A DNA stretch of 64,000 nt from NCBI RefSeq assembly GCF_000026545.1, contig NC_011601.1, one strand, 5' to 3'. This document shows, one piece after another, positions 23,401 through 35,400 of the stretch. Made by a program: the position numbers. Source of the stretch: Escherichia coli O127:H6 str. E2348/69. GTDB lineage: Bacteria > Pseudomonadota > Gammaproteobacteria > Enterobacterales > Enterobacteriaceae. How positions within the stretch are numbered: position 1 is the stretch's first letter; the number at the start of each line of letters is the position of its first letter.

Positions 23401-26400
23401 CAACTAAAATCAATGTAACCGTTTGTTGTTTAAGGTTTAATTGTCTGTGTCTGATATTTTATTGATTGTTTTAAATATTGTTTTTATTGTCATTGTTATA
23501 ATGTTGGCTATCTATTGCTGAATGGATTCAGTCTTAAGAGGCAGGTTGTTAAGGGATAGGCATAGAGTAATGACGTGTATGCATAACCAACATCTTTACT
23601 CATTATGTCATTGAATGTTGACGCTATGTGTTTATGAGGTTGAGGTATTTTCAGTTGATCTGGATTGTTAAATTCATATAATGCGCCTTTACTCATGAAT
23701 GGGCGTCAATACGTAGTGGGAAATTATAAATATCGAAATAGTCCAACTACTTCTTTATTACCAAAAATGAGTATCTGAATTTTAATATTGCATTCTTGCG
23801 TGATTATCTCCTGAGTTTGACTTGTGATTACCTTTTTAAGGTATTTAGCGTAACTGTTTTTGAGCGAGCATCAGAGGTAAAGATAATCTTCTTGATAGTG
23901 ATGTGGGATGTTATACGTATGGCATCGCTAATGTTTATGGTTACCCCTTATGTGTGCTCAGGAATCCACAGGTAATCACTCATACTGAACAGCGATAAAA
24001 GATAAAAGGTGTGTTCATGAATTCATGTGATTTTCGTGTTTTTCTGCAAGAGTTCGGTACAACGGTTCATTTGTCATTGCCTGGTAGCGTATCCGAGAAA
24101 GAACGACTGCTACTCAAGCTGCTGATGCAGGGAATGTCTGTAACAGAAATATCACAGTACAGAAATCGCAGTGCAAAGACCATTTCACATCAAAAGAAAC
24201 AGCTCTTTGAGAAACTGGGGATTCAGAGCGATATTACTTTCTGGCGGGATATTTTCTTTCAGTACAATCCGGAGATCATATCCGCCACGGGTAATAATAG
24301 TCACAAATATATTAATGATAATCACTATCACCATATCGTCACGCCTGAAGCCATCAGTCTGGCGTTGGAAAACCACGAGTTTAAACCGTGGATCCAACCG
24401 GTTTTCTGCGCGCAGACTGGGGTACTGACGGGCTGTGAAGTGCTTGTCCGCTGGGAACATCCACAAACGGGAATGATCCCACCGGATCAGTTTATTCCTC
24501 TGGCGGAGTCATCCGGTCTTATTGTCATAATGACTCGCCAGCTGATGAAACAGACTGCGGATATTCTGATGCCGGTAAAACATTTGCTGCCGGACAATTT
24601 CCATATTGGTATCAACGTCTCGGCGGGCTGTTTTTTGGCTGCGGGATTTGAAAAAGAGTGTCTGAACCTGGTTAAGAAATTAGGTAACGATAAAATCAAG
24701 CTGGTTCTTGAGCTGACGGAACGTAATCCTATTCCGGTAACGCCAGAAGCCAGAGCGATATTTGACAGCCTTCATCAGCACAATATTACTTTTGCGCTGG
24801 ATGACTTTGGTACGGGTTATGCAACCTATCGTTACTTGCAGGCGTTCCCGGTCGATTTTATTAAAATTGACAAGTCGTTTGTGCAAATGGCGAGTGTCGA
24901 TGAAATCTCCGGTCATATTGTGGACAATATTGTCGAACTGGCGCGTAAGCCTGGTCTGAGTATCGTGGCGGAAGGGGTAGAAACCCAGGAGCAGGCGGAT
25001 TTAATGATCGGTAAAGGCGTTCACTTTTTACAGGGCTATTTGTACTCTCCGCCAGTACCGGGTAATAAATTTATCTCTGAATGGGTAATGAAAGCAGGTG
25101 GTTGATGTAAACCGCTATTCACAGCGCATCGGGAGGTTGGCAGCGATTAATTCTCCCGATGCAGTAAATCCTGATAGATCCCCGTTAATATGCCATTTGG
25201 CGCAAATTGTTTTTTAATCCACTGCGTCACCTGACCGGTGGCAGAGTGCTGGGTTGCGAGTAACATGCGTGAATCCTGGCGCGGGTTATGGATTTGTCGG
25301 GTAACCAGCAAGGATTGCGCCATCGCCTCACGGACCATGTAATCCGGCAAAAAACCAATTCCTTCACCTAAAATCTGGCACTGACATTTGGTGTTGAAAT
25401 CGGGCACCAGAATCGATTCCTGCCCATGCAGCAACCAGCCTACTTTTTTATTAATCGTATGCGCGGTGTCCTCCACCATGATATTAGGGTAGAGACGCAG
25501 CTGGCTTTCGGCGATCGGCTCCGGCACAAAGGCTAATGGGTGATCCGGGGCGATGGCAAAAGCCCAGCGAATCGCGCCAATCTCCGTGTAATCAATGCCG
25601 CCACCGTCCAGCAGCGTGTCGGGTGCGCCGATAGCGATATTTGCCTGATTATTAATAATCGCATCCCAGACGCCGTTATACACTTCGGTGGTGACGGTAA
25701 TCTGGCAGGTAGGAAACTGCTTTTTCAGCACCTGTAATAAGCGTGCGGTGTGTTTGGGCGTATAAAGCAGCTGATTAATACAAATTCGCACACGCGCTTC
25801 TATGCCCTGCGAAATAGTATCGATACTGCGTTTAATGGCATGAAAATCATTCAGCAGGTCGGTAGCTTTGCGGAAAAAATAACGCCCGGACTCCGTTAAC
25901 TCAATGCTGCGGGTACTGCGAGTGAACAGCACCACATCCAGCCCCGTCTCCATACGTTTAATGGTGTAGCTAATGGCGGAAGTGGTTAAACCCAACTCTT
26001 CTGCGGCTTTACTGAAGCTGCCAAAACGCGCAGCGGTAGTAAATGCCAACAGATTCTCTTCGGTAAAAATTGAGTTCATTAAACCATTCCCGCCATTATC
26101 TAATATGAATTTCTCCAGGCATAACTGTAGAGGTATCAATTAAAGATGGGTAATCATTTTTGAATAACTTTTAATACCCGTCGCGTTTAGTCGTCGCTTC
26201 GCTTAATTTTTGTCCGCCATATTCTGAAATTATCCCCACGCAGTTACCCGCCAGAAAACCCAGTAATGTCACCGTCCAGTTCATCCCGCTGGCAAAAAAT
26301 AGCGTCATGCCGAGAAAGCCCCCGGGAATAAAAGACAGTAACCAGAAACGCCCTTGCCAGACCACCACCGCCGAGAAGGGTACAGTCGTAATTACGCTCG

Positions 26401-32400: not shown

Positions 32401-35400
32401 ACGCCGACATTCTGGTGATCACCACTGGCGTCGAAAAAGTGTGTATTCACTTTGGCAAACCGCAGCAGCAGGCGCTGGATCGCGTAGATATTGCCACCAT
32501 GACCCGCTATATGCAGGAAGGGCATTTCCCACCTGGCAGCATGTTGCCAAAAATCATCGCCAGCCTGACGTTCCTGGAACAGGGCGGCAAAGAAGTGATT
32601 ATCACCACGCCGGAATGCCTGCCTGCGGCGCTACGCGGCGAAACGGGCACCCATATTATTAAAACCTAAGGACGTAAGATGAAAGAAAACAATAGCCGCC
32701 GTGAATTTCTGAGCCAGAGCGGTAAGATGGTCACCGCCGCCGCGCTGTTTGGTCCCTCAGTGCCGCTCGCCCATGCGGGGGTAGCTGGCACCCTAAACTG
32801 CGAAGCGAACAACACCATGAAAATCACTGACCCGTATTACTATCTCGATAACGTGCTGCTGGAAACCGGTTTTGACTACGAAAATGGCGTGGCGGTACAG
32901 ACCCGCACGGCGCGCCAGACCGTGGAGATTCAGGACGGTAAAATTGTTGCCCTGCGCGAGAACAAGCAGCATCCGGACGCCACGCTGCCGCACTATGACG
33001 CTGGCGGTAAGCTGATGCTGCCCACCACCCGCGACATGCATATTCATCTCGACAAAACCTTCTACGGCGGGCCGTGGCGCTCGCTCAATCGTCCGGCAGG
33101 CACCACTATCCAGGACATGATCAAACTCGAGCAGAAAATGCTGCCGGAACTGCAACCGTACACGCAGGAACGGGCGGAAAAACTGATCGATTTATTGCAG
33201 TCGAAAGGCACCACCATTGCCCGCAGCCACTGCAATATCGAACCGGTTTCCGGCCTGAAAAATCTGCAAAATTTGCAGGCGGTGCTGGCGCGACGTCAGG
33301 CGGGCTTCGAGTGTGAAATCGTCGCCTTCCCGCAGCACGGTTTGCTGCTGTCGAAATCGGAACCCTTAATGCGCGAAGCGATGCAGGCGGGGGCGCATTA
33401 TGTCGGCGGGCTGGACCCGACCAGTGTCGATGGCGCGATGGAAAAATCCCTCGACACCATGTTCCAGATTGCGCTGGACTATGACAAAGGCGTCGATATT
33501 CACCTGCACGAAACCACGCCGGCAGGCGTGGCAGCCATCAATTATATGGTTGAAACAGTGGAGAAAACGCCGCAGCTAAAAGGCAAGCTGACCATCAGTC
33601 ACGCCTTTGCGCTGGCAACGCTCAACGAACAACAGGTAGATGAACTGGCGCACCGGATGGTGGCGCAGCAAATTTCTATCGCCTCGACGGTGCCGATTGG
33701 CACGCTGCATATGCCGCTCAAACAGTTGCACGACAAAGGCGTAAAAGTGATGACCGGCACCGACAGCGTTATCGACCACTGGTCGCCTTACGGCCTGGGC
33801 GACATGCTGGAAAAAGCCAATCTGTACGCGCAGCTCTATATTCGTCCTAACGAACAGAACCTCTCCCGCTCTCTGTTTTTAGCCACTGGCGATGTATTGC
33901 CGCTCAACGAAAAAGGCGAGCGCGTGTGGCCCAAAGCGCAGGATGATGCCAGCTTTGTGCTGGTGGACGCCTCCTGTTCCGCCGAGGCGGTGGCGCGTAT
34001 TTCGCCGAGAACGGCGACGTTCCATAAAGGGCAACTGGTGTGGGGAAGTGTGGCAGGTTGATATGCATTTAATATGTCTGCAACGGTGAACAGTAAGAGA
34101 TTTAAGCCCCAGGGAGTGGGGCGGCCTGAGTATGAGTGTGTTGGCAGAAATGGACATTATCTTTGAAGAATATGCCCTTATTGACGTTGTGTAGATAACT
34201 ATTTGTCTACGTGAAAATATCATCAGTTTTGCCGATTTTTGTCTTTTACGGATAGCAAATATCACACTTATAGGCGCTCGCCTTATGGGGAACGTTGCTG
34301 CTCTGTTTCATTCAGGCTCGCGGCATGTTGGGGCTGGATCGGGTGGTTTAAATATTGGCTATATTCAATGGACGCGTTTTGCCGCGATGACATATCAGGC
34401 ATCGCCAAATACACATAGCTAATCAGGAGTAAACACAATGAAGATCAAAGCGTGCATATTCCGCTAAACAACCGCTTGAACCGATGGATATCACCCGGCG
34501 TGAACCGGGACCGCATGATGTCAAAATCGAAATCGCTTACTGTGGCGTCTGCCATTCCGATCTCCACCAGGTCCGTTCGGAGTGGGCGGGGACGGTTTAC
34601 CCCTGCGTGCCGGGTCATGAAATTGTGGGGCGCGTGGTAGCCGTTGGTGATCAGGTAGAAAAACATGCGCCGGGCGATCTGGTCGGTGTCGGCTGCATTG
34701 TCGACAGTTGTAAACATTGCGAAGAGTGTGAAGACGGGCTGGAAAACTACTGTGATTACATGACCGGCACCTATAACTCGCCGACACCGGATGAACCGGG
34801 CCATACTCTGGGCGGCTACTCACAACAGATCGTCGTTCATGAGCGATATGTTCTGCGTATTCGTCACCCGCAAGAGCAGTTGGCGGCGGTGGCTCCTTTA
34901 TTGTGTGCAGGAATCACCACGTACTCGCCGCTACGCCACTGGCAGGCCGGGCCGGGTAAAAAAGTGGGCGTGGTCGGCATCGGCGGTCTGGGACATATGG
35001 GGATTAAACTGGCCCACGCGATGGGGGCGCATGTGGTGGCATTTACCACTTCTGAGTCAAAACGCGAAGCGGCAAAAGCCCTGGGGGCCGATGAAGTTGT
35101 TAACTCACGCAATGCCGATGAGATGGTGGCTCATGTGAAGAGTTTCGATTTCATTTTGAATACAGTAGCTGCGCCACATAATCTCGACGATTTTACCACC
35201 TTGCTGAAGCGCGATGGCACCATAACGCTGGTTGGTGCGCCTGCGACACCGCATAAATCGCCGGAAGTTTTCAACCTGATCATGAAACGCCGCGCGATAG
35301 CTGGTTCTATGATTGGCGGCATTCCAGAAACTCAGGAGATGCTCGATTTTTGCGCCGAACATGGCATCGTGGCTGATATAGAGATGATTCGGGCCGATCG

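What the first reader, a model, noticed from the sequence alone, without database searches (positions are those of the whole stretch)
26171..34061. yahB-yahC / yahDEFG-yahIJ: candidate uncharacterised carbamoyl-compound catabolic system
Divergent from a LysR regulator (yahB) and membrane protein (yahC) lies a tightly packed operon: ankyrin-repeat protein (yahD), DUF2877 protein (yahE), FdrA-like protein with a succinyl-CoA-synthetase-alpha-type CoA/NAD(P)-binding domain (yahF), DUF1116 protein (yahG), a carbamate kinase homologue (yahI) and a CodA-like metal amidohydrolase (yahJ). yahE/F and yahF/G overlap (translational coupling). The FdrA + DUF1116 + DUF2877 + carbamate kinase combination also occurs next to the allantoin genes (fdrA-ylbE-ylbF-ybcF), where it has been proposed to act as an oxamate carbamoyltransferase feeding carbamoyl phosphate to carbamate kinase for ATP production. 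This cluster looks like a paralogous module with its own deaminase, so a plausible function is ring-opening or deamination of an unknown N-heterocycle or ureide, followed by phosphorolytic release of carbamoyl phosphate and ATP/NH3/CO2 formation. An ankyrin-repeat protein is unusual in a core enterobacterial operon.
Basis: partly seen in the sequence, partly recalled or inferred. Interest (0 to 1): 0.72.

Follow-up and report, generated by a model that had tools for sequence, protein, structure and literature searches.

The report
Second ureide-to-ATP operon in E. coli
The yahB-yahJ cluster of E. coli is a real, still uncharacterised sister copy of the recently solved allantoin-pathway enzyme set that splits a urea-like compound into carbamoyl phosphate and then ATP, but with its own regulator, an ankyrin-repeat partner, a periplasmic amidohydrolase and a swapped transporter.

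Summary

YahE, YahF, YahG and YahI are paralogues of AllH, AllF, AllG and AllK (24, 39, 45 and 38% identity). AllFGH was shown in 2024 to be oxamic transcarbamylase. YahB is an AllS paralogue (39%).

- The yah-type module is a separate orthologous group. YahG is 76-78% identical in Brevibacillus and Janthinobacterium.
- The ankyrin protein recurs with the module in three phyla.
- YahJ carries a Tat signal in 75 of 75 orthologues, so it is probably periplasmic.
- The BIME fills the slot where 55 of 71 related loci carry a 517-aa transporter with a UraA/SLC26-like predicted fold. yahC is present only where that transporter is absent.
- yahE is missing in Enterobacter and fused to yahF in Zophobihabitans.

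Most likely function, by inference only: YahJ makes an acyl-urea in the periplasm (oxalurate is the leading candidate). This is imported and phosphorolysed by Yah(D)EFG to carbamoyl phosphate, and YahI converts that to ATP.

The substrate is unknown, and I found no published function. I rate it a new variant of a known kind, of moderate interest.

The parts
25147..26079 (-). yahB, a LysR-type regulator and paralogue of AllS. It is the probable activator of the yahD operon.
   Evidence: 39% identity to K-12 AllS, E 6e-73. The best NCBIfam hit is AllS at 268 bits, below the 372 cut-off. It is conserved and divergently oriented next to the operon in 70+ loci. AllS directly activates the allF operon (PMC12535856).
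26171..26668 (-). yahC, a small DUF1097 membrane protein. It is a candidate replacement for the lost transporter.
   Evidence: Pfam DUF1097, E 2e-26. It is present in 16 loci that lack the 517-aa transporter and absent from 55 loci that have it. No locus has both and none has neither.
26776..26885 (.). Conserved control region upstream of yahD. It contains the dyad ATTGTTGAA-N5-TTCAACAA (26801-26822, a T-N11-A type LysR box) and the conserved blocks TTGCAC-N4-GCAC (26776-26789), GAATTAAATTTAAGCGG (26839-26855) and GTTGCTATTCT (26875-26885).
   Evidence: Alignment of 19 upstream regions from Enterobacterales, Aeromonas and Janthinobacterium. No strong consensus sigma-70 promoter is found here, which fits an activator-dependent promoter. 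Function is inferred.
26926..27531 (+). yahD, a 201-aa ankyrin-repeat protein. It recurs with the yah-type module and is a putative scaffold or fourth subunit.
   Evidence: It is the first gene of the operon in Janthinobacterium (68% identity), Aeromonas (69%) and Brevibacillus (53%). Bacillales and Carnobacteriaceae carry a 374-396-aa homologue; NCBIfam scoring of the Psychrobacillus copy and precomputed Pfam hits for the Jeotgalibaca and Trichococcus copies show TPR repeats C-terminal to the ankyrin part. It is absent from the all cluster.
27571..28434 (+). yahE, an AllH-family (formerly DUF2877) subunit. It evolves fast and is dispensable in some lineages.
28424..29971 (+). yahF, an AllF/FdrA-family subunit with HMA-like N-terminal, CoA-binding-like and CoA-ligase-like domains.
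   Evidence: NCBIfam FdrA, 493 bits against a cut-off of 433. 39% identity to AllF. PDB 3dmy (FdrA), E 7e-84. The phosphohistidine of succinyl-CoA synthetase alpha aligns with Ile or Val. 67-72% identity to Brevibacillus and Janthinobacterium.
29971..31389 (+). yahG, an AllG-family (formerly DUF1116) subunit. It is the most conserved component.
   Evidence: Pfam AllG, E 4e-89. 45% identity to AllG, against 76-78% to Brevibacillus and Janthinobacterium and 70% to E. faecalis (PDB 3clq). Its N-terminal ~50 residues correspond to the C-terminal tail of AllF.
31403..31681 (.). BIME: three tandem 93-nt units of REP pairs. RefSeq annotates a 'hypothetical protein' (the former yahH) across it. It occupies the slot of the missing transporter gene.
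   Evidence: three copies, 77-100% identity. RefSeq CDS at window 31415-31687. In 55 related loci a 515-526-aa membrane protein gene sits exactly here. Ribosome footprints across this ORF were reported in EHEC (PMC4765031).
31719..32669 (+). yahI, a carbamate kinase.
   Evidence: NF009007, 649 bits against a cut-off of 266. PDB 1e19, E 9e-83. The GGN and HGNGPQVG loops, K130, K216/D217 and the GPK lysine are all conserved. 38% identity to AllK.
32679..34061 (+). yahJ, a Tat-exported CodA/AtzC-type mononuclear metal amidohydrolase. The signal peptide spans about 32679-32777.
   Evidence: The twin-arginine motif SRREFL, an h-region and AHA occur in 75 of 75 orthologues. The ligands and catalytic residues H121, H123, Q219, H275, E278, H308 and D362 align with those of CodA. 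The nearest PDB entries are AtzC-like (6nbo, 1.5e-43). It is listed as a predicted Tat substrate, and a delta-yahJ mutant had a competitive index of 0.70 in ExPEC (PMC7549933).

Best explanation
The yah cluster is a self-contained second copy of the AllS / AllFGH / AllK type of system. That system breaks down a ureide by phosphorolysis and recovers ATP. The yah copy appears specialised for a substrate that comes from outside the cell, rather than from the cell's own allantoin pathway.

Proposed sequence of events:
1. YahB, an AllS-like LysR activator, binds the conserved dyad upstream of yahD and switches on yahDEFG-yahIJ.
2. YahJ is exported folded by the Tat system. In the periplasm it hydrolyses a C-N bond of a precursor, by CodA/AtzC-type hydrolysis of an amidine or acyl-guanidine. 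This would give an N-acyl-urea.
3. The product is imported. In most relatives a 517-aa transporter with a UraA/SLC26-like predicted fold does this. In Escherichia that gene is gone, a BIME sits in its place, and the DUF1097 protein YahC is the candidate substitute.
4. YahF and YahG form the conserved catalytic core. YahE (AllH family) and the ankyrin protein YahD act as accessory or scaffold subunits. The complex transfers the carbamoyl group to phosphate, giving carbamoyl phosphate plus the de-carbamoylated amide.
5. YahI, a carbamate kinase, converts carbamoyl phosphate and ADP into ATP, NH3 and CO2.

The leading candidate for the carbamoyl donor is oxalurate itself or a close acyl-urea. Such a compound could arise from parabanate or from an oxalyl-guanidine-type compound.

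What is shown: gene anatomy, homology, intact catalytic residues, the Tat motif, and conserved synteny. What is inferred: every biochemical step, the substrate, and the roles of YahC, YahD and YahE.
For: **Paralogy of the whole module, regulator included**
- and Pfam/NCBIfam.
- Purified AllFGH has oxamic transcarbamylase activity and AllK is a catabolic carbamate kinase (PMC11326118 and PMC9843812).
- AllS activates the allF operon.

**A distinct, strongly conserved orthologous group**
- YahG is 76-78% identical, and YahF 67-72%, between E. coli and Brevibacillus or Janthinobacterium. YahG is only 45% identical, and YahF 39%, to the all paralogues in E. coli; the Brevibacillus and Janthinobacterium proteins are likewise only 46-47% (AllG) and 36% (AllF).
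- Both modules coexist across E. coli: allFGHK in 5407 and yahDEFG in 5005 of 5426 complete genomes.

**Recurring partners across phyla**
- These are a carbamate kinase, an ankyrin protein, a membrane transporter (T517, an allantoin-permease-like NCS1, or both), a deaminase or amidohydrolase, and a regulator (LysR or PucR).
- The deaminase or amidohydrolase is YahJ-like at 36-44% identity, or guanine-deaminase-like with a CDA fold (1tiy, 1.5e-31).
- No allantoin-pathway genes lie next to any yah-type locus examined, apart from an allantoate-amidohydrolase-like M20 enzyme in three Bacillales loci (Peribacillus, Psychrobacillus, Paenibacillus).

**Other support**
- T517 model: pLDDT 90. Foldseek hits UraA, SVCT1, AZG2, SLC26 and BicA at probability 1.00.
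- YahJ has a Tat motif in 75 of 75 orthologues, and its Firmicute homologues lack the N-terminal extension.
- The yahE-yahF fusion and the shifted boundary between the F and G proteins argue for one physical complex.
- E. faecalis carries a yah-type AllH-F-G cluster, and enterococci have documented OXTCase activity. In one strain it was induced by parabanic acid (references 22 and 23 cited in PMC11326118).
- There are ribosome footprints through the BIME, and a delta-yahJ mutant has a mild fitness defect in vivo.
Against: - No enzymatic, genetic or expression evidence exists for any yah gene product.
- K-12 delta-allF and delta-allG mutants make no oxamate from allantoin even though yahDEFG is present. 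So either the yah enzyme does not use oxalurate, or it is not expressed under those conditions.
- CodA/AtzC-type enzymes are deaminases, not ring-opening hydrolases. No enzyme that would open a cyclic ureide is conserved in the module.
- Janthinobacterium, one Aeromonas and the E. coli plasmid copies lack YahJ altogether.
- YahC has no demonstrated transport function.
- YahE is absent in Enterobacter, whereas AllH is needed for full AllFGH activity.
- I did not show that E. faecalis has only one AllG-family cluster.
Confidence: 0.6

Rival explanations
1. In Escherichia the cluster is a cryptic or decaying remnant. The dedicated transporter has been deleted and replaced by a BIME, and the operon is silent and contributes nothing under natural conditions.
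For: - The T517 gene is missing exactly where 55 related loci carry it.
- A BIME fills the gap.
- The yah genes do not compensate for allF or allG deletions.
- The genes sit in a dense cluster of uncharacterised genes.
- There is no strong sigma-70 promoter.
Against: - All eight ORFs are intact, and catalytic residues are conserved.
- yahDEFG and yahIJ are retained at 80% coverage or more in about 92-93% of 5426 complete genomes.
- The same T517-less architecture, always with yahC, is kept in Kluyvera, Raoultella, Pseudocitrobacter and others. That looks like replacement rather than decay.
- The upstream operator-like dyad is conserved.
- Ribosome footprints and a delta-yahJ competitive defect have been reported.
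Confidence: 0.12
2. The module performs the AllFGH type of chemistry on a carbamoyl compound that is not an acyl-urea. Examples are biuret or triuret, an N-carbamoyl amino acid such as N-carbamoylsarcosine from creatinine, or a ring-opened purine ureide. It would then have nothing to do with oxalurate.
For: - There is only 24-45% identity to AllFGH, with long coexistence in one genome.
- AllFGHK-like genes sit beside biuret and triuret hydrolase genes in nitrifiers (PMC12625717).
- The transporters are nucleobase- or hydantoin-type.
- Bacillales clusters carry a guanine-deaminase-like enzyme and a carbamoylase-like M20 enzyme.
Against: - The E. faecalis yah-type cluster, together with the documented enterococcal OXTCase, points to oxalurate.
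- The minimal modules (transporter, D-E-F-G, carbamate kinase) have no ring-opening or other preparatory enzyme.
Confidence: 0.2
3. The system runs in the biosynthetic direction. YahI makes carbamoyl phosphate from carbamate and ATP, as the Pyrococcus carbamate-kinase-like enzyme does. YahDEFG then carbamoylates an acceptor to build a ureide.
For: - YahI's best solved relative is the P. furiosus enzyme (281 bits). From my own knowledge, that enzyme works anabolically.
- The AllFGH assay was itself run in the synthetic direction.
Against: The consistent association with importers, hydrolytic deaminases or amidohydrolases, a carbamoylase-like M20 enzyme and PucR- or AllS-type catabolic regulators fits catabolism. 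No biosynthetic neighbours were seen.
Confidence: 0.05
4. YahF is what RefSeq calls it, an acyl-CoA synthetase, and the cluster activates or cleaves a CoA thioester rather than a ureide.
For: - The RefSeq product name is 'acyl-CoA synthetase FdrA'.
- It has Pfam CoA_binding and Ligase_CoA domains and is similar to succinyl-CoA synthetase alpha (E 6e-18).
Against: - The phosphohistidine of succinyl-CoA synthetase alpha aligns with Ile or Val in YahF, AllF and their orthologues.
- No beta-subunit or ATP-grasp partner is encoded.
- The homologous AllFGH complex has transcarbamylase activity.
- A carbamate kinase is part of the operon in nearly all loci examined; the E. faecalis, Trichococcus and Jeotgalibaca loci have none nearby.
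Confidence: 0.03

Closest known systems
AllFGH oxamic transcarbamylase plus AllK carbamate kinase and AllS activator (E. coli allantoin 'oxamate branch')
   Same: The same three protein families (FdrA/AllF, AllG, AllH), encoded by adjacent, translationally coupled genes in one operon with a carbamate kinase, next to a divergently oriented AllS-type LysR regulator.
   Different: - Only 24-45% identity, forming a separate orthologous group.
- Gene order is H-F-G rather than F-G-H.
- The C-terminal tail of AllF is on the N-terminus of YahG.
- There are extra conserved partners: an ankyrin protein, a dedicated transporter or YahC, and a Tat-exported amidohydrolase.
- The cluster is not adjacent to allantoin genes.
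- It does not replace AllFGH in delta-all mutants.
Arginine deiminase / agmatine deiminase type pathways (deiminase, then catabolic transcarbamylase, then carbamate kinase)
   Same: The same logic. A hydrolytic deimination or deamination produces a ureide, phosphorolysis gives carbamoyl phosphate, and carbamate kinase makes ATP. A dedicated transporter is encoded alongside.
   Different: - The transcarbamylase is unrelated to the OTCase/ATCase fold.
- The deaminase belongs to the amidohydrolase superfamily rather than the guanidino-modifying superfamily, and it is periplasmic.
- The substrate is unknown.
ygeW-ygeX-ygeY-hyuA-yqeA cluster of E. coli (anaerobic urate-linked genes with the third carbamate kinase paralogue)
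   Same: Another poorly defined N-heterocycle cluster in E. coli that pairs a carbamoyltransferase with a carbamate-kinase paralogue.
   Different: YgeW is a classical-fold transcarbamylase. There are no AllF/G/H proteins, no ankyrin protein and no Tat amidohydrolase.
AtzC / TrzC / CodA mononuclear amidohydrolases
   Same: YahJ shares the HxH, His and Asp metal ligands and the Glu, His and Gln catalytic residues. Its best PDB hits are AtzC-like enzymes.
   Different: - YahJ scores far below the NCBIfam cytosine-deaminase cut-offs (102 against 438).
- It carries a Tat signal peptide and belongs to its own NCBIfam subfamily (NF005312).

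Membership tests
AllFGH-class carbamoyltransferase (oxamic transcarbamylase) | Three subunits belonging to the FdrA/AllF, AllG (PF06545) and AllH (PF11392) families | tested here: met
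   Pairwise E-values are 2e-103, 2e-119 and 4e-10.
AllFGH-class carbamoyltransferase (oxamic transcarbamylase) | Genes contiguous and co-operonic with a catabolic carbamate kinase | tested here: met
   The overlaps are 11 nt and 1 nt, and yahI lies downstream. The same arrangement occurs in 70+ loci.
AllFGH-class carbamoyltransferase (oxamic transcarbamylase) | Orthology to AllF, AllG and AllH (same subfamily, same genomic context beside allDCE) | tested here: not met
   Identity to the All proteins is 39, 45 and 24%. Cross-phylum yah-type proteins are 67-78% identical. No allantoin genes are adjacent.
AllFGH-class carbamoyltransferase (oxamic transcarbamylase) | Catalyses oxalurate + Pi <-> oxamate + carbamoyl phosphate | not testable with these tools
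   This needs a purified enzyme. The only indirect evidence is that K-12 delta-allF and delta-allG make no oxamate.
Carbamate kinase (EC 2.7.2.2) | Family score above the curated cut-off, with conserved catalytic lysines, aspartate and glycine loops | tested here: met
   NF009007, 649 bits against 266. K130, K216, D217, the GPK lysine, GGN and HGNGPQVG align with 1e19 and 1b7b. The residue roles come from my own knowledge of the P. furiosus and E. faecalis structures.
CodA/AtzC-type mononuclear amidohydrolase | HxH, His and Asp metal ligands plus the catalytic Glu, His and Gln | tested here: met
   H121, H123, H275, D362, E278, H308 and Q219 align with the CodA residues.
Cytosine deaminase proper | Score above the NCBIfam cytosine-deaminase cut-offs | tested here: not met
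   102, 82 and 68 bits against cut-offs of 438, 483 and 403.
Tat-exported periplasmic protein | N-terminal S/T-R-R-x-F-L motif, a hydrophobic region and an AxA cleavage site | tested here: met
   MKENNSRREFLSQSGKMVTAAALFGPSVPLAHA. The motif is present in 75 of 75 orthologues. Export itself was not tested; YahJ is listed as a predicted Tat substrate in PMC7549933.
Succinyl-CoA synthetase alpha / acyl-CoA synthetase | Catalytic phosphohistidine in the GHAGA loop | tested here: not met
   In the alignment with E. coli SucD the His aligns with Ile or Val in YahF, AllF and three orthologues. The alignment in this region crosses a large insertion, so it is approximate.
AllS (LysR activator of allantoin genes) | Score above the AllS equivalog cut-off | tested here: not met
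   268 bits against 372. YahB is a paralogue at 39% identity.
BIME / REP element | Tandem units containing inversely oriented REP palindromes in an intergenic region | tested here: met
   Three 93-nt units. The locus is described as REP23 in the literature.
NCS2 / AzgA / SulP '7+7 inverted repeat' transporters (for T517, which is absent from the window) | UraA-type fold | tested here: inconclusive
   The AF2 model has pLDDT 90. Foldseek gives probability 1.00 and TM about 0.5 to UraA, SVCT1, AZG2 and SLC26. There is no Pfam, NCBIfam or PDB sequence match.

The most novel reading that the evidence does not exclude
The yah-type module is a widespread four-component transcarbamylase, made of an FdrA-like protein, an AllG-like protein, an AllH-like protein and an ankyrin scaffold. 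With its periplasmic or cytoplasmic deaminases and nucleobase-type importers, it would harvest ATP and nitrogen from oxidised purine debris taken up from the environment.

An example route is acyl-guanidines such as oxidised guanine or creatinine products, deaminated to parabanate or oxalurate, and then converted to oxamate plus carbamoyl phosphate.

This would define a previously unrecognised salvage pathway and the first catalytic-complex role for a bacterial ankyrin protein.
Probability: 0.12. Interest if true: 0.8.

Novelty: new variant of a known kind. Interest (0 to 1): 0.55.

Why it matters
E. coli keeps two complete copies of an unusual three-family transcarbamylase system that was only deciphered in 2024, and the second copy has no known substrate.

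The yah-type copy is in fact the more widely and tightly conserved form. It occurs across Proteobacteria and Firmicutes, and it also sits on E. coli plasmids.

Identifying its substrate would achieve several things:
- It would remove a block of eight genes from the E. coli y-ome.
- It would explain one of the three carbamate kinases of E. coli.
- It would define what a Tat-exported CodA-like enzyme does in the periplasm.
- It could reveal a fermentative ATP source relevant in the gut or urinary tract, given the reported mild in-vivo defect of a delta-yahJ mutant.

The comparative anatomy gives concrete experimental handles. F and G look like the catalytic core, D and E look accessory, and the transporter has been swapped.

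Tried and rejected
- **Literature.** Searches for any functional study of yahB, C, D, E, F, G, I or J returned only lists, a Tat-substrate screen and a ribosome-profiling note. The Huynh & Stewart 2023 review of enterobacterial purine catabolism is not held.
- **T517 by sequence.** There were no Pfam, NCBIfam or PDB hits. Only the fold search was informative.
- **Promoter and terminator scan.** It found fewer sigma-70-like sites than in shuffled sequence, none upstream of yahD, and no plus-strand terminator. This is uninformative beyond suggesting activator dependence.
- **Sigma-54 promoter.** I looked for one in the conserved upstream block. The GTTGCTAT element has no matching -24 GG at the right distance, so I rejected it by inspection.
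- **Cytosine deaminase duplicate.** I rejected the idea that YahJ is a second codA (codA is at 46500-47798 in the same window). The NCBIfam scores are far below the cut-offs, and YahJ is exported.
- **Not done.** I did not test whether E. faecalis has a second AllG-family locus. I did not test whether nitrifier allFGHK-like clusters are yah-type or all-type.

Full report
**1. Observation**

The window is E. coli E2348/69, with 100% identity over the 7,891-base region of the finding (window 26171-34061).
- yahB (LysR), 25147-26079 (-)
- yahC, 26171-26668 (-)
- yahD, 26926-27531 (+)
- yahE, 27571-28434 (+)
- yahF, 28424-29971 (+)
- yahG, 29971-31389 (+)
- yahI, 31719-32669 (+)
- yahJ, 32679-34061 (+)

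yahE and yahF overlap by 11 nt, and yahF and yahG by 1 nt. The 329-nt yahG-yahI spacer contains three tandem 93-nt BIME units at 31403-31681. RefSeq still annotates a 'hypothetical protein' across them, the former yahH.

The family assignments were verified:
- YahE matches Pfam AllH (formerly DUF2877), E 2e-28.
- YahG matches Pfam AllG (formerly DUF1116), E 4e-89.
- YahF scores above the NCBIfam FdrA cut-off.
- YahI scores 649 bits on carbamate kinase NF009007.
- YahJ scores 714 bits on amidohydrolase NF005312. Its nearest solved structures are AtzC-like, followed by CodA.
- YahC is DUF1097.

**2. Relation to the all genes**

I compared the Yah proteins with K-12 AllF, AllG, AllH, AllK and AllS (locus L002):

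| Yah protein | All protein | Identity |
|---|---|---|
| YahF | AllF | 39% |
| YahG | AllG | 45% |
| YahE | AllH | 24% (E 4e-10) |
| YahI | AllK | 38% |
| YahB | AllS | 39% |

So the regulator is duplicated along with the enzymes.

Purified AllF-AllG-AllH has oxamic transcarbamylase activity, and delta-allF, delta-allG and delta-allH mutants lose oxamate production (PMC11326118). AllK is a catabolic carbamate kinase (PMC9843812). AllS directly activates the allF operon (PMC12535856).

None of these papers mentions the yah genes. The 2024 y-ome survey lists yahC, E, G, H, I and J as an uncharacterised cluster.

**3. The yah-type module is its own widely conserved orthologous group**

YahG is 88% identical in Aeromonas, 78% in Janthinobacterium and 76-77% in Brevibacillus, Paenibacillus and Psychrobacillus. 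It is 70% identical to the E. faecalis protein solved as PDB 3clq. It is only 45-48% identical to AllG. YahF and YahI behave the same way.

In E. coli both modules are nearly universal. allFGHK is present in 5407 of 5426 complete genomes, yahDEFG in 5005 and yahIJ in 5035. Long coexistence at this level of divergence argues for non-redundant roles.

**4. Comparative anatomy**

*Enterobacterales and Aeromonas.* Among 71 informative loci:
- 55 have the order yahB(-) | yahD-E-F-G-T517-yahI-yahJ. T517 is a 515-526-aa polytopic membrane protein.
- 16 lack T517 and instead carry yahC between yahB and yahD. These are Escherichia, Pseudocitrobacter, Kluyvera, Raoultella, K. spallanzanii and C. amalonaticus.
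- No locus has both T517 and yahC, and no locus has neither.

In E. coli the BIME sits exactly in the vacated T517 slot.

*T517.* It has no Pfam, NCBIfam or PDB sequence match. It nevertheless belongs to a sizeable family of 2196 50%-identity clusters. A confident AF2 model (pLDDT 90) matches the 7+7 inverted-repeat transporters UraA, UapA, SVCT1, AZG1/2, SLC26 and BicA at Foldseek probability 1.00. T517 homologues at 57-68% identity also sit in the Psychrobacillus and Jeotgalibaca clusters.

*Ankyrin protein.* It is the first gene of the operon in Janthinobacterium, Aeromonas and Brevibacillus. In Bacillales and Carnobacteriaceae it occurs as a longer 374-396-aa form, with TPR repeats C-terminal to the ankyrin part in the copies that were scored.

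*YahE.* This is the least conserved subunit (26-29% identity across phyla). It is undetectable in 21 of 71 loci (19 of them the Enterobacter-Leclercia-Lelliottia group, where the yahD-yahF spacer is only 109-149 nt) and in Jeotgalibaca. In Zophobihabitans it is fused in frame to YahF as an 817-aa protein.

*Boundary shift.* The C-terminal ~45 residues of AllF correspond to the N-terminus of YahG.

Together these points suggest an F-G catalytic core with D and E as accessory subunits of one complex.

*Firmicutes.* The clusters use a PucR-type regulator. They variously add:
- an allantoin-permease-like NCS1 transporter (435-463 bits, below the equivalog cut-off);
- a CDA-fold deaminase closest to B. 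subtilis guanine deaminase (1tiy, E 1.5e-31);
- an allantoate-amidohydrolase/carbamoylase-type M20 enzyme (465 bits against a cut-off of 399);
- two or three YahJ-like amidohydrolases without signal peptides (36-44% identity).

*Minimal modules.* Janthinobacterium, A. allosaccharophila and E. coli plasmids such as pECOD1-1 carry only regulator | D-E-F-G-T517-carbamate kinase.

**5. Individual proteins**

*YahI.* It retains the GGN and HGNGPQVG loops. It also retains the lysines and aspartate equivalent to K131, K215/D216 and K277 of the P. furiosus enzyme. The residue roles come from my knowledge of the published structures.

*YahJ.* It retains all CodA metal ligands and catalytic residues: H121, H123, Q219, H275, E278, H308 and D362. 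It scores far below the cytosine-deaminase cut-offs.

Its N-terminus, MKENNSRREFLSQSGKMVTAAALFGPSVPLAHA, is a textbook twin-arginine signal. The motif is present in all 75 orthologues recovered. The literature lists YahJ as a predicted Tat substrate and reports a modest competitive defect for delta-yahJ in an ExPEC mouse model (CI 0.70, p 0.02; PMC7549933).

*YahF.* It lacks the phosphohistidine of succinyl-CoA synthetase alpha. The RefSeq label 'acyl-CoA synthetase' is therefore unsupported.

*YahE.* It folds confidently (pLDDT 93) into an N-terminal beta domain and a C-terminal helical domain that carries the invariant GxGxGLTPxxDD motif. It has no structural relative in the PDB.

**6. Regulation**

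No consensus sigma-70 promoter precedes yahD. The upstream region does contain blocks conserved from E. coli to Aeromonas, and partly to Janthinobacterium. The most notable is the dyad ATTGTTGAA-N5-TTCAACAA at 26801-26822, a typical LysR T-N11-A box.

Ribosome profiling in EHEC showed footprints through the BIME ORF, and the authors suggested a yahDEFGIJ operon (PMC4765031).

**7. Mechanistic reading**

The shown facts fit a self-contained route from import to ATP. The steps are periplasmic hydrolysis by YahJ, uptake, phosphorolytic carbamoyl transfer by Yah(D)EFG, and ATP formation by YahI. YahB would control the system.

Two unrelated deaminase families recur with the module, the CodA/AtzC type and the guanine-deaminase type. 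Both act on amidine or acyl-guanidine carbons, and their products are acyl-ureas. That is the class to which the AllFGH substrate oxalurate belongs.

The E. faecalis cluster is yah-type. Enterococci have documented oxamic transcarbamylase activity, induced in one strain by parabanic acid (references cited in PMC11326118). I therefore rank oxalurate or a close acyl-urea from an external source as the leading candidate substrate.

Against this, K-12 delta-allF and delta-allG make no oxamate from allantoin although yahDEFG is present. That could reflect different specificity or simply lack of induction. All of this section is inference.

**8. Rivals**

- A different ureide substrate, such as biuret or triuret (compare the nitrifier clusters), N-carbamoylsarcosine from creatinine, or ring-opened purine ureides. 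I give this 0.2.
- A cryptic remnant in Escherichia. I give this 0.12. Intact ORFs, about 92% retention, the consistent yahC-for-T517 swap and the conserved operator all count against it.
- An anabolic direction. I give this 0.05.
- CoA-dependent chemistry. I give this 0.03, because the catalytic His is missing.

**9. Novelty and verdict**

The genes are known and already annotated by homology, so the bare observation is not new. The function remains open, and I found no published function.

Relative to AllFGHK this is a variant architecture. It has four components including an ankyrin protein, its own importer, a Tat-exported amidohydrolase and an AllS paralogue.

The new information from this analysis is:
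- the distinct orthologous group;
- the recurrent ankyrin partner;
- the periplasmic location of YahJ;
- the lost transporter with mutually exclusive yahC;
- dispensable or fused YahE;
- plasmid-borne copies;
- the conserved operator.

I rate interest as moderate (0.55). This is a well-posed, directly testable y-ome problem rather than a categorically new system.

Noticed in passing
L089 (E. coli plasmid pECOD1-1, NZ_JBRNXK010000002.1 180104-193068); about 120 plasmid places: A complete yah-like module sits on E. coli plasmids next to IS3 and recombinase genes. Its order is LysR | ankyrin - DUF2877 - FdrA - YlbE - 516-aa T517 transporter - carbamate kinase, with no yahJ. The module is therefore mobile, and some strains carry both a chromosomal copy and a plasmid copy with the transporter.
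   Followed up: partly
L064:7536-9989 (Zophobihabitans entericus): yahE and yahF are fused into a single 817-aa ORF with no stop between them. This is a natural gene fusion linking the AllH-like and FdrA-like subunits.
   Followed up: yes
L035, L037, L039, L041-L055, L057-L060, L063 and others (Enterobacter, Leclercia, Lelliottia, Silvania, Huaxiibacter): These operons have no yahE at all. yahD is followed by yahF after only 109-149 nt. In E. coli, by contrast, AllH is needed for full AllFGH activity. Jeotgalibaca (L092) also lacks an AllH gene.
   Followed up: partly
L009 and L010 (Pseudocitrobacter) compared with window 26171-34061: Conservation is mosaic. YahF, G, I and J are 95-99% identical to the E. 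coli proteins, but YahC, YahD and YahE are only 72-74%, 71-72% and 54-57% identical. This suggests a recombination breakpoint near the yahE/yahF junction, or recent transfer of the 3' half of the operon.
   Followed up: no
window 31415-31687 (+): RefSeq annotates a 90-aa 'hypothetical protein' that lies entirely within the three BIME repeats (the former yahH). A 2016 ribosome-profiling paper reported footprints on the equivalent ORF in EHEC. Whether it is a real product or read-through of the operon mRNA is unresolved.
   Followed up: partly
L086:9751-11155 (E. faecalis contig from Logan): The AllG-family gene is split here into a 77-aa ORF and a 384-aa ORF, either a frameshift or an assembly error. 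The PDB 3clq construct is 421 aa and also lacks the N-terminal ~50 residues present in YahG. This E. faecalis cluster has no ankyrin gene and no carbamate kinase gene nearby. It does have a 393-aa membrane protein with no Pfam hit on record and no NCBIfam match, shared with Trichococcus at 68% identity.
   Followed up: partly
window 46500-47798 (+): codA, the genuine cytosine deaminase, lies about 12 kb downstream of yahJ in the same window. I used it as the reference for the catalytic-residue alignment.
   Followed up: yes
window 34277-34351 (+), between yahJ and yahK: RefSeq marks a 75-nt partial pseudogene here ('hypothetical protein, missing N-terminus'). I did not examine it.
   Followed up: no
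window 26776-26885: The non-coding blocks upstream of yahD are strongly conserved from Escherichia to Aeromonas. They include a TTGCAC-N4-GCAC element whose binding factor, if any, is unknown.
   Followed up: partly
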